The notes beneath the pieces were generated by a model, which did no database searches, was not told the DNA's origin, and saw nothing but the letters and a program-made list of their open reading frames with translations. A stretch of 51,465 nucleotides of DNA from a virus (taxonomy: Duplodnaviria; Heunggongvirae; Uroviricota; Caudoviricetes): the IMG/VR virus record IMGVR_UViG_2872152978_000009. One strand, written 5' to 3'. Made by a program: the position numbers and the translations under genes. Below are positions 23,977 through 24,668 of the stretch, one piece after another; position 1 is the stretch's first letter; every line of letters begins with the position of its first letter.

Positions 23977-23980
23977 TTCA

Positions 23981-24325
23981 ATGACTCAAAACTATGAACT
24001 GATTGTGAAAGGGATCCGCAATTTTGAGAATAAAGTTACGGTAACTTTAGCGTTACGGGACAAAAAACGCTTTGACGGTGAAATTTTTGACCTGGACATC
24101 GCGCTGGACCGTGTTGAAGGTGCCGCGCTGGAGTTTTATGAGGCAGCAGCCAGAAGGAGCATCAGACAGGTCTTCCTGGATGTTGCTGCCGGGTTATGTG
24201 AAGGGGATGAGCAGTCGCCGGAAAAGCGCCCCGTAATTTTAGAGGCGCAGGATGTGTTGATAACCTACAGAGGAAAACTACCGGGAATAATTACGGGTTC
24301 TCTGAAGAGTCCGCCGAAATGGTAA
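23981..24325 (+). CDS. Hypothetical protein inserted between holin and endolysin
   Basis: 114-aa ORF with GGAGAG ribosome-binding site; no recognisable family. Confidence 0.5.
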   Translation: MTQNYELIVKGIRNFENKVTVTLALRDKKRFDGEIFDLDIALDRVEGAALEFYEAAARRSIRQVFLDVAAGLCEGDEQSPEKRPVILEAQDVLITYRGKLPGIITGSLKSPPKW

Positions 24326-24563
24326 TTTTACCAGCATATTTTTCATCCAGTAATACAGCAAGCCGCCTGAAAGAGTCTTGTTGTTCCTGAGACCATTTGG
24401 GATTGCATGATTCAAACTGGATTGATGCCAGCGTTGATTGCATCTGTTCCCTTGGAATTGAGAATGCCAGATATGAGAAGGCGACGGTAAGGGTATTCAC
24501 GTCTTCCCGAAGCTTGGAAATGCTGTCGAGCAACTCCTGTAGAGAAATGGTGTTATTGTCCAT
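24291..24563 (-). CDS. Hypothetical protein, convergent with the upstream ORF
   Basis: 90-aa minus-strand ORF with GAGGA ribosome-binding site 9 nt upstream of ATG; overlaps the 3' end of 23981-24325 by 35 bp. Confidence 0.4.
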   Translation of the reverse strand: MDNNTISLQELLDSISKLREDVNTLTVAFSYLAFSIPREQMQSTLASIQFESCNPKWSQEQQDSFRRLAVLLDEKYAGKITISADSSENP

Positions 24564-24668
24564 AAATAATCCTCATGATTGTATTGACCTGTTAGCAGCC
24601 TGAGGCAACAGGCTGGAACTGATAAACATATCCAGGGCTCAGAAACCGATAAATCCTGATAAATATCC

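What the first reader, a model, noticed from the sequence alone, without database searches (positions are those of the whole stretch)
23977..24668. Convergent pair of unknown genes inserted between pinholin and SAR endolysin
In the lambdoid lysis cassettes I recall, holin and endolysin genes are adjacent. Here about 690 bp separate the S21-type pinholin (ends 23976) from the SAR endolysin (starts 24669). The gap holds a 114-aa plus-strand ORF (23981-24325) and a 90-aa minus-strand ORF (24291-24563) whose 3' ends overlap by 35 bp. Each has a credible ribosome-binding site and neither resembles a family I can name. The convergent, overlapping layout suggests mutual antisense regulation, as in a small toxin/antitoxin or exclusion module riding in the lysis operon.
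Basis: partly seen in the sequence, partly recalled or inferred. Interest (0 to 1): 0.6.

Follow-up and report, generated by a model that had tools for sequence, protein, structure and literature searches.

The report
YdfR gene plus antisense prophage moron
The gap between the holin and endolysin genes holds ydfR, a very common E. coli prophage gene, and a real but uncharacterised small gene on the opposite strand; this is an ordinary, already annotated arrangement and not a toxin-antitoxin pair, although the opposite-strand gene belongs to a small, unstudied family.

Summary

The plus ORF is not unknown. It is YdfR (Pfam DUF1327). ydfR-like DNA occurs in about 80% of complete E. coli genomes, and relatives including K-12 Qin (essQ-ydfR-rrrQ) are annotated holin-YdfR-lysozyme. 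K-12 YdfR was recently shown to bind RNase E.

The variable part is the minus gene, here called B (phrog_2411). It sits in a roughly 290-bp, AT-richer cassette found in about 19% of genomes.

B is a real gene:
- dN/dS is 0.23-0.41.
- It is intact in every allele examined.
- It survives alone in a decayed prophage remnant.
- It has a syntenic chromosomal clade (pyrC-dinI-B-bssS-solA) in Erwiniaceae and Chimaeribacter.

B is predicted to be a soluble, acidic, helical protein. It has its own RBS, a conserved -10-like element and, in relatives, a covarying structured leader.

A toxin-antitoxin reading fails. Neither protein has a TM segment or TA/defence domain, the two genes do not co-occur, and K-12 YdfR overproduction is not reported as toxic.

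One finding remains unexplained. In all six phage contexts examined, B converges on, and 3'-overlaps, a small gene in the late-operon direction.

Best reading: a late-operon gene plus an independently transcribed antisense moron. Interest is modest.

The parts
23761..23976 (+). S21-type class II holin (pinholin), 71 aa, with Met1/Met4 dual start. Context gene.
   Evidence: PF04971, E 6.4e-31. Annotated 'class II holin family protein' as a 216-nt CDS in relatives. Sequence read.
23981..24325 (+). ydfR-family gene (DUF1327), 114 aa. Late-operon orientation, starting 4 nt after the holin stop. Ends in the conserved motif ...PGIITGSLKSPPKW.
   Evidence: PF07041, 145 bits, E 7.7e-43. phrog_406, E 1.6e-67. 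Annotated 'YdfR family protein' in RefSeq relatives. ydfR-like DNA in 4349/5426 genomes. AF2 model has low confidence: three strands, a helix, then three strands.
24291..24563 (-). Gene B: a 90-aa acidic (pI 4.5), soluble, all-helical protein of family phrog_2411. The conserved core is residues ~5-78. The tail, residues 79-90, is non-conserved and predicted disordered.
   Evidence: phrog_2411, E 1.5e-58. dN/dS 0.23-0.41 and open in 5/5 alleles. Family alignments. AF2 predicts four helices, with pLDDT below 50 for residues 79-90. Hydropathy and pI.
24291..24325 (.). The 35-nt convergent 3' overlap of ydfR and B. It encodes YdfR's conserved ...ITGSLKSPPKW and B's non-conserved tail.
   Evidence: The same 35-nt overlap is present in L001, L004, L005 and L009. 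B's tail differs in L006, P0042 and P0046.
24317..24612 (.). Approximate extent of the indel (B cassette). It is present here and absent from otherwise homologous S-ydfR-R cassettes.
   Evidence: DNA alignment against L007, which lacks B. GC is 44.7% for B and 41% for its leader, against 53-55% for S and R.
24564..24653 (-). B's upstream region on the minus strand. Elements: SD GAGGA (24574-24570); hairpin CAGCCUG-UUGCCU-CAGGCUG (24615-24596); conserved CCCTGG (24637-24632); -10-like TATGTT (24630-24625); weak -35-like TTTATC (24653-24648, 17-nt spacer).
   Evidence: Sequence. The CCCTGGWTATGWT element is conserved upstream of B in E. coli alleles, L006, L010 and L014. The leader helices covary in distant relatives. 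The hairpin alone has z = -1.33. The consensus promoter scan found no canonical site here.
24669..25202 (+). SAR-type lysozyme (RrrQ-like), 177 aa. Context gene.
   Evidence: PF00959, E 1.3e-23. Annotated as lysozyme / rrrQ in relatives.

Best explanation
The 690-bp 'gap' is the normal architecture of this class of E. coli lambdoid lysis cassette, with one extra moron.

1. ydfR (DUF1327) is a late-operon gene sitting between the S21-type holin and the SAR lysozyme, as in K-12 Qin. From its position and orientation it is most likely co-transcribed with them. Its K-12 orthologue binds the catalytic half of RNase E and co-purifies with RNA. The most likely role is therefore an RNA-metabolism accessory of late infection, not a lysis effector or a toxin.

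2. A roughly 290-bp, AT-richer cassette has been joined immediately after YdfR's conserved C-terminal motif, at a junction that is hypervariable among relatives. It carries gene B on the opposite strand. B has its own ribosome-binding site, a conserved -10-like element and a hairpin-containing leader.

3. B encodes a small, soluble, acidic, helical protein that works on its own. Its family includes a vertically inherited chromosomal gene between dinI and bssS in Erwiniaceae. B also stays intact in prophage remnants that have lost S, ydfR and R.

4. Inferred, not shown: B is transcribed in the lysogen against the direction of late transcription. On induction, late transcription through ydfR collides with and pairs with B's transcript, which switches B off. 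Conversely, B's read-through transcript is antisense to ydfR and S. The 35-nt coding overlap is a by-product of the tight join: B simply reads on to the first stop inside ydfR. It is not a designed interaction surface.
For: **ydfR**
- Its identity and ubiquity are shown.
- RNase E binding through residues 1-72, RNA co-purification and the limited effect of overproduction come from PMC13232886.

**B as an insertion**
- Other occupants of the same junction are long in-frame YdfR tails plus unrelated minus-strand ORFs phrog_1853 and phrog_2572.
- GC is 41-45% against 53-55% in the flanking lysis genes.

**B as a real, independent gene**
- dN/dS is 0.23-0.41.
- The B region is present at 80% coverage or more in 1053/5426 genomes.
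- B stands alone beside iha in a remnant that keeps only B and its upstream region.
- A paralogue lies downstream of an autotransporter gene and also occurs on plasmids.
- All 13 species returned by the genome-contig scan (Erwinia, Winslowiella, Pantoea, Mixta, Chimaeribacter and one unclassified Enterobacterales) have syntenic pyrC-dinI-B-bssS-solA.

**B's own expression signals**
- The SD and the CCCTGG-TATGTT element are conserved across alleles and distant relatives.
- In the leader of relatives, 88% of cells are paired and 10 pairs show compensatory changes (0/500 shuffles reach this). G-U pairs fit only B's sense strand.

**B's tail and orientation**
- The tail, residues 79-90, is disordered and non-conserved.
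- B is antisense to the late operon in all six phage contexts.
Against: - There are no expression data for B. The consensus scan found no canonical sigma-70 promoter upstream of B and no terminator after it.
- The -35 region is poor and is not conserved.
- In this window the leader is reduced to one hairpin, which is not significant on its own (z = -1.33).
- The leader structure rests on only six sequences and was derived from those same sequences.
- The recurring convergent 3' overlap with a small late-direction ORF in 6/6 phage contexts suggests the pairing itself may be selected. The 'independent moron' reading does not explain this.
- The function of both proteins is unknown. The structure models have low confidence (pLDDT 61 and 66) and gave no meaningful fold matches.
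- The RNase E data are for the K-12 protein, which is truncated and divergent after residue ~77.
Confidence: 0.55

Rival explanations
1. A and B form a functional two-gene module. 'A' is the late-direction ORF ending in a beta-hairpin tail, here fused to or part of YdfR. The convergent, 3'-overlapping layout is itself the mechanism. Either reciprocal antisense control makes the two expression states mutually exclusive (B in the lysogen, A in lytic growth), or the B protein binds the tail of A. The module could serve exclusion, abortive infection or developmental timing.
For: - In all six phage contexts, B converges on and overlaps a small late-direction ORF. The overlaps are 35, 7, 14, 20, 15 and 17 nt, in E. 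coli, Atlantibacter, Citrobacter, Klebsiella and two metagenomic contigs. The pair lies between S and R, between tail genes M and L (twice), upstream of a holin gene, and upstream of the terminase genes.
- Three partners end in I[TF]G[SD]L[KR]xP. Several start with M[TS]LE[QE]xV..LE.
- The long YdfR tail of PhiR5_1 matches the Citrobacter partner at E 4e-8.
Against: - ydfR-like DNA is in 4349 genomes against 1053 for B, and individual cassettes hold ydfR with no B: L007 and K-12 Qin.
- In Salmonella, the partner ORF is kept while B is truncated.
- B occurs without any partner in remnants, on plasmids or islands, and in 13 chromosomes.
- Homology among the partner ORFs is not statistically established. 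The L010 and L014 partners give no BLASTP alignment, and YdfR against the L014 partner gives only short segments.
- Six contexts is a small sample, and they probably share ancestry.
Confidence: 0.25
2. The pair is a toxin-antitoxin system riding in the lysis operon. This could be type I (protein toxin plus antisense RNA from the convergent transcript) or type II (two interacting proteins).
For: The genes are small and convergent, their 3' ends overlap, and they lie on a mobile element. hokD and HicAB modules occur elsewhere in related prophages, so TA modules are common cargo.
Against: - Neither protein has a hydrophobic segment: maximum KD19 is 0.69 and 0.75, against 1.94 for the holin.
- No TA or defence domain was found in Pfam, NCBIfam or PADLOC.
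- The convergent arrangement is not a type II operon.
- The genes do not co-occur, in either direction.
- In PMC13232886, K-12 YdfR overproduction affected only a few transcripts. Growth arrest is described only for YegJ.
Confidence: 0.03
3. B is a dedicated lysis regulator. For example, it could be a cytoplasmic inhibitor of the pinholin or SAR endolysin, or its antisense RNA could silence leaky S expression in the lysogen. On this reading its position between S and R is functional.
For: B is positioned inside the lysis cassette. No terminator is predicted downstream of B, so its transcript may run antisense through ydfR and S. In L005 the S-ydfR-B block travels together ahead of a different set of lysis genes.
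Against: - Family members lie between tail genes M and L, upstream of the terminase genes, beside iha, and between dinI and bssS in chromosomes with no lysis genes nearby.
- Individual S21-type cassettes lack B (L007, K-12 Qin), and B is in about a quarter as many genomes as the cassette.
Confidence: 0.07
4. The minus-strand ORF is a chance ORF that is over-annotated, and the only gene in the gap is ydfR.
For: There is no Pfam or NCBIfam family and no fold match. Only 3 of 50,697 phage records carry it.
Against: - dN/dS is 0.23-0.41, and this is the only frame open in all five alleles, including one at 72% identity with dS near 1.
- There is a full-length PHROG match.
- Homologues at 25-40% identity exist in other genera, including a syntenic chromosomal clade.
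Confidence: 0.02

Closest known systems
Qin prophage lysis cassette of E. coli K-12 (essQ-ydfR-rrrQ-rzpQ)
   Same: The gene order is the same: class II holin, then a DUF1327 gene, then lysozyme, then the Rz gene. ydfR starts a few bases after the holin stop.
   Different: K-12 YdfR is 103 aa and diverges after residue ~77, so it lacks the ...ITGSLKxPP tail. Qin has no minus-strand gene, and ydfR there overlaps rrrQ directly.
bor/iss-type morons of lambdoid phages. These are genes oriented against the late operon next to the lysis genes and expressed from the prophage (established knowledge of lambda bor). iss and bor are annotated this way in related loci.
   Same: A small extra gene on the opposite strand to late transcription, next to the lysis genes. 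It is present in some relatives and absent in others, and its base composition differs from its neighbours.
   Different: Bor and Iss are outer-membrane lipoproteins with signal peptides, whereas B is a soluble, acidic, helical protein. B lies inside the S-R interval and overlaps its neighbour's 3' end. No terminator is predicted, and its expression is untested.
Lambda oop RNA / cII convergent overlap (antisense control through paired 3' ends; established knowledge)
   Same: Convergent transcription units whose 3' ends overlap by tens of nucleotides. Transcription of one could therefore destabilise or occlude the other.
   Different: Here both partners are protein-coding. No RNase III dependence and no regulatory outcome has been shown. 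This is only a 'could work like' analogy.
PHROG family phrog_2411 (unknown function)
   Same: The 90-aa protein matches the 90-position profile end to end at E 1.5e-58. Distant relatives also hit it.
   Different: The family has no assigned function. This work adds a chromosomal Erwiniaceae clade and island- or plasmid-borne paralogues that a phage-protein resource is not expected to cover (inference; not checked).

Membership tests
DUF1327 / YdfR family (Pfam PF07041) | Profile match above the curated gathering score | tested here: met
   145.1 bits against a cut-off of 25, E 7.7e-43, covering residues 1-111 of 114.
DUF1327 / YdfR family (Pfam PF07041) | Position between the class II holin and lysozyme genes of an enterobacterial lambdoid prophage | tested here: met
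   The same order is annotated in RefSeq relatives and in K-12 Qin.
DUF1327 / YdfR family (Pfam PF07041) | Binding to the RNase E N-terminal half, as reported for K-12 YdfR residues 1-72 | not testable with these tools
   Known only from PMC13232886. This protein is 67% identical to K-12 YdfR.
phrog_2411 | Full-length profile match | tested here: met
   E 1.5e-58, residues 1-90 against profile positions 1-90.
Moron (extra transcription unit in a lambdoid genome) | Present between genes that are adjacent in close relatives | tested here: met
   L007 has S-ydfR-R with 63 bp in place of the ~290-bp cassette.
Moron (extra transcription unit in a lambdoid genome) | Base composition different from the flanking genes | tested here: met
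   GC is 44.7% for B and 41% for its leader, against 52.8% for S and 55.4% for R.
Moron (extra transcription unit in a lambdoid genome) | Own promoter and terminator | tested here: inconclusive
   A conserved CCCTGG-TATGTT element (-10-like) lies 7-10 nt upstream of the conserved leader. However, there is no canonical promoter hit and no terminator.
Moron (extra transcription unit in a lambdoid genome) | Expressed from the repressed prophage | not testable with these tools
   This needs strand-specific RNA-seq or 5'-RACE.
Type I toxin-antitoxin | Small hydrophobic membrane toxin (usually under 60 aa with a TM helix) | tested here: not met
   Maximum 19-residue Kyte-Doolittle hydropathy is 0.69 for YdfR and 0.75 for B, against 1.94 for the holin control. 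Both proteins are acidic and soluble.
Type II toxin-antitoxin | Co-directional two-gene operon with a recognisable toxin or antitoxin domain | tested here: not met
   The genes are convergent. There are no TA domains in Pfam, NCBIfam or PADLOC.
Type I or II toxin-antitoxin | Obligate co-occurrence of the two genes | tested here: not met
   ydfR-like DNA is in 4349 genomes against 1053 for B. L007 and K-12 Qin have ydfR without B. B occurs alone in L006, L018, L019, L021 and 13 chromosomes.
Known anti-phage defence systems (PADLOC-DB) | Profile match to a defence-system protein | tested here: not met
   No family at E <= 1 for either protein.
Antiholin / holin-like lysis regulator | A membrane-spanning segment, or being a dual-start product of the holin gene | tested here: not met
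   Neither protein has a TM segment. The dual start is in S itself, at 23761 and 23770.

The most novel reading that the evidence does not exclude
The convergent, 3'-overlapping A/B pair is an undescribed, conserved two-gene phage cassette. 'A' is the late-direction ORF, here the tail of YdfR. A would be made in lytic growth and B in the lysogen, held mutually exclusive by head-on transcription and paired 3' ends. B's translation would be gated by a pseudoknot-like leader (helices UCAGCC/GGCUGA, a covarying hairpin, and a stem around a GGAUGGCUGAUUAAC loop next to the SD). B would be a host-derived small regulator, since its orthologue sits between dinI and bssS in Erwiniaceae. Phages would have captured it to reprogramme the lysogen or to exclude rival phages, possibly connected to YdfR's binding of RNase E.
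Probability: 0.15. Interest if true: 0.6.

Novelty: new member of a known kind. Interest (0 to 1): 0.33.

Why it matters
As first posed, the finding is ordinary. The arrangement is annotated in thousands of E. coli genomes and is not a TA module, so nothing about lysis-cassette biology is overturned.

What may be worth following:
- ydfR is one of the most widespread unexplained genes of E. coli prophages. It sits between holin and endolysin, and now has a reported RNase E link.
- The junction after its C-terminal motif is a hotspot where different cargo is swapped in.
- One such cargo, the phrog_2411 gene, belongs to a very small family: 21 hits among 1.84 billion representative proteins. Some members are phage-borne and always antisense to late genes. 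Others are vertically inherited and chromosomal. In relatives the gene has a covarying leader.

This makes a cheap, testable case for how small prophage genes are insulated from late transcription and regulated. UTI89 carries the same cassette and could be used directly.

Tried and rejected
- **Toxin-antitoxin or exclusion module.** Rejected on hydropathy, absence of TA/defence domains, lack of co-occurrence and published non-toxicity.
- **Spurious minus ORF.** Rejected by dN/dS and by distant homologues.
- **Known RNA in the gap.** Rfam at E <= 1 found nothing between 23977 and 24668.
- **Sequence search of solved structures.** No hits for either protein.
- **Fold searches.**
  - B against PDB and BFVD gave only E > 0.8.
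  - The afdb50 library was unavailable.
- **Relatedness of other minus-strand ORFs at the same slot.** Stx2-86 gp06 and the PhiR5_1 'DUF1823' ORF are not related to B.
- **P0061 'ybl58'.** It looked like a 43%-identical homologue but is a frameshifted copy. A literature search for ybl58 found nothing.
- **The search for related loci with the diverse B alignment.** It failed for lack of a conserved stretch.
- **Homology among 'A' partner ORFs.** Not established by BLASTP, so only a short C-terminal motif and a shared architecture are claimed.
- **Canonical sigma-70 promoter or terminator for B.** None found. A candidate TTGCCT-N19-TACAAT was considered but has a 19-nt spacer.
- **CsrA-type control** (GGA in a hairpin loop plus GGA at the SD). 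Noted as an idea only; untested.
- **Proximity of rne to the chromosomal B locus in L019.** Treated as coincidence.
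Full report
**1.

- A holin ORF ends at 23976.
- A 114-aa plus-strand ORF lies at 23981-24325.
- A 90-aa minus-strand ORF lies at 24291-24563.
- Their 3' ends overlap by 35 nt.
- A lysozyme gene starts at 24669.

The holin is S21-type (PF04971, E 6.4e-31). The start used in annotated relatives corresponds to 23761, with a second Met codon at 23770. The lysozyme is PF00959 and is followed by Rz (PF03245). Both gap ORFs have Shine-Dalgarno-like sequences.

**2. The plus-strand ORF is YdfR, a very common resident of this position**

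It scores 145 bits (E 7.7e-43) against Pfam DUF1327 and matches phrog_406 end to end.

A search of 5,426 complete E. coli genomes with the S-to-R segment matched 4,408 of them. The rows are annotated 'class II holin / YdfR family protein / lysozyme', and they include K-12-type Qin prophages (essQ-ydfR-rrrQ-rzpQ). ydfR-like DNA alone is in 4,349 genomes at 8,617 places. Holin and endolysin are therefore not normally adjacent in this cassette class.

The only functional literature found is PMC13232886 (RNA Biol 2026):
- K-12 YdfR binds the N-terminal half of RNase E through residues 1-72, shown by two-hybrid assay and co-purification.
- It co-purifies with DNase-resistant nucleic acid.
- It is not expressed under standard conditions.
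- When overproduced it changes few transcripts. Growth arrest is described only for another protein, YegJ.

**3. The variable element is the minus-strand gene, 'B'**

Alignment with a B-less cassette (L007) puts the indel at about 24317-24612. YdfR's last codons and about 290 bp are replaced there by 25 nt.

The junction falls right after YdfR's conserved C-terminal ...ITGSLKxPP motif. Relatives diverge at that point. Some end in KW*, EF* or ESQP*. Others continue in frame for 60-150 aa and are followed by unrelated minus-strand ORFs: phrog_1853 in Stx2 phage 86 and phrog_2572 in PhiR5_1. It is a cargo hotspot.

Other properties of the B region:
- It is present at 80% coverage or more in 1,053 of 5,426 genomes, in two main allele groups (99% or more, and about 86% identity). 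It is found in only 3 of 50,697 phage records.
- It is AT-richer than its neighbours: 44.7% GC for B and 41% for its leader, against 53-55% for S and R.
- UTI89 carries the same S-ydfR-B-R cassette.

**4. B is a real gene**

Five alleles down to 72% nucleotide identity are all 273 nt with no indels. Only B's frame is open in all five. Pairwise dN/dS is 0.23-0.41. The other frames give about 0.6-2.3 or carry stops. The one exception is the antisense frame that shares wobble positions, which has stops in 4 of 5 alleles.

The family is tiny. There are 62 near-identical to 59%-identical proteins in Escherichia, Shigella, E. albertii and Citrobacter. A profile search of 1.84 billion representatives gives only 21 hits at E <= 1e-3.

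The protein is acidic (pI 4.5) with no hydrophobic segment. AF2 predicts four helices with pLDDT 66. The tail, residues 79-90, has pLDDT below 50. This tail is the part encoded antisense to ydfR, and it is not conserved in the family. I therefore read the 35-nt coding overlap as B running on to the first stop inside ydfR.

No Pfam, NCBIfam, PADLOC, PDB-sequence, PDB-fold or BFVD-fold match exists.

**5. B functions independently of ydfR**

- L006 is a prophage remnant beside the iha adhesin gene. It retains only B, its upstream region and the first 23 nt of R. S, ydfR and R are gone, yet B is intact with dS of about 1 and dN/dS of 0.23-0.35 against the other alleles.
- An 89-aa E. coli paralogue was seen on more than 1,000 contigs. 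It lies downstream of an AIDA-type autotransporter gene and also occurs on plasmids.
- A more distant clade (25-29% identity) is a chromosomal gene. All 13 species returned by the genome-contig scan have pyrC-dinI-B-bssS-solA in the same order. They are Erwinia, Winslowiella, Pantoea, Mixta, Chimaeribacter and one unclassified Enterobacterales. Sodalis ligni has a stand-alone copy.

**6. B has its own expression signals**

In this window, on the minus strand:
- GAGGA lies 6 nt before the ATG.
- The hairpin CAGCCUG-UUGCCU-CAGGCUG is at 24615-24596.
- CCCTGG-A-TATGTT is at 24637-24625.
- A weak TTTATC lies 17 nt upstream of TATGTT.

The CCCTGG(W)TATG(W)T element recurs upstream of B in all E. 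coli alleles, in the remnant L006, and in Atlantibacter and Citrobacter phage copies. Some of the chromosomal copies (L027, L029, L030, L031) have CTGG-TATAGA.

In six distant relatives the leader folds into three helices:
- UCAGCC pairing with GGCUGA.
- A covarying hairpin, mostly with a GURGGA loop.
- A stem around a conserved GGAUGGCUGAUUAAC loop beside the SD.

In that structure 88% of cells are paired, against 77% in shuffles. Ten pairs show compensatory changes (0/500 shuffles reach this), the slid controls fall to 22-47% paired, and the G-U pairs fit only B's sense strand.

Caveats:
- There are only six sequences, and the structure was derived from them.
- This window keeps only the first helix, which is not significant by itself (z = -1.33).
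- The consensus scan finds neither a canonical promoter nor a terminator for B.

**7. The toxin-antitoxin or exclusion-module reading fails**

- There is no membrane segment and no TA or defence domain.
- The orientation is convergent, not an operon.
- There is no co-occurrence in either direction.
- The K-12 orthologue is not reported as toxic.

**8. One thing remains unexplained**

In every phage context I could retrieve, B is antisense to the late operon. It also converges on, and overlaps the 3' end of, a small late-direction ORF.

| Context | Late-direction partner | 3' overlap |
|---|---|---|
| E. coli (this window) | YdfR, 114 aa | 35 nt |
| Atlantibacter, between tail genes M and L | 71 aa | 7 nt |
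| Citrobacter, upstream of the holin gene | 63 aa | 14 nt |
| Klebsiella, upstream of the terminase genes | 63 aa | 20 nt |
| Logan contig (L024), again between tail gene M and a probable tail L fragment | 60 aa | 15 nt |
| Logan contig (L025) | 85 aa | 17 nt |

Three partners end in I[TF]G[SD]L[KR]xP, and several begin with M[TS]LE[QE]xV..LE. The long YdfR tail of PhiR5_1 matches the Citrobacter partner at E 4e-8.

Pairwise homology among the partners is otherwise not significant. In Salmonella the partner persists while B is truncated by another insertion.

I therefore keep 'conserved two-gene module' as the main rival (0.25) rather than the best explanation.

**9. Verdict**

The finding is a correct observation of an ordinary, already annotated arrangement. 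It consists of a ubiquitous late-operon gene (ydfR) plus an antisense moron from a small uncharacterised family.

The most likely mechanism is inferred, not shown. B would be transcribed from its own promoter in the lysogen and shut off by head-on late transcription after induction. YdfR would act in late infection, plausibly on RNA metabolism through RNase E.

Novelty is low for the locus and moderate for the B family and its recurring convergent layout.

Noticed in passing
window 12427-13757 and 22330-23660: Two 100%-identical 1331-bp IS2-like elements (InsC/InsD-type ORFs). The second is inserted about 100 bp upstream of the holin start, between the SASA/NanS-p-like esterase gene (20403-22274) and S. 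It is absent from the otherwise collinear prophage of E. coli C11 (L001). It may be polar on late transcription into the lysis genes.
   Followed up: partly
window 25203-25500: The 300-bp R-Rz gap (GC 42%) is a second unannotated slot. It holds a strong hairpin with a T-run at 25293-25325, a 57-aa ORF with a hydrophobic segment at 25326-25499, and a weak Rfam hit (rimP leader, E 0.1, below gathering score) on the minus strand at 25269-25358. Stx2 phage 86 carries ant in the equivalent position.
   Followed up: no
window 23693-23721: A terminator-like hairpin with a T-run lies just upstream of the holin gene. It is native, being also present in L001, and is not part of the IS.
   Followed up: partly
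YdfR residue ~112 (window ~24316) and relatives L002, L003, P0108, P0113: The junction after YdfR's ...GSLKxPP motif is a recombination hotspot. Relatives carry in-frame tails of 60-150 aa and unrelated minus-strand ORFs (phrog_1853, phrog_2572). The resulting YdfR lengths are 103, 104, 114, 116, 176, 183, 211 and 268 aa.
   Followed up: partly
L042 3001-3653 (Salmonella enterica prophage): The 63-aa partner ORF (...KITGSLRAPVKL) is kept, but B is reduced to its 3' end. An 83-aa plus-strand gene (3402-3653) sits in its place. From its sequence alone, that gene appears to follow a strands-then-helix pattern like YdfR's; I neither modelled it nor compared it with YdfR.
   Followed up: no
L019, L027, L029-L041 (Erwiniaceae, Chimaeribacter): The chromosomal B orthologue always lies between dinI and bssS. 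It follows the dinI terminator and, in most of the loci, has a conserved TATAGACTGT element and a leader hairpin. In L019, rne lies two genes upstream; I treat this as coincidence given YdfR's reported RNase E binding.
   Followed up: partly
window 19823-20158 (-) and 19181-19340: An IraM-like 111-aa minus-strand ORF, another antisense moron upstream of the lysis region, is annotated as the anti-adapter IraM in relatives. tRNA-Met and tRNA-Arg genes lie downstream of the Q region.
   Followed up: no
L005 (E. coli STEC409, Stx2 prophage): The S-ydfR-B block is followed not by the SAR lysozyme but by a second, unrelated lysis set (two holin-like genes plus an M15 peptidase). The block is therefore exchanged as a unit, independently of R.
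   Followed up: no
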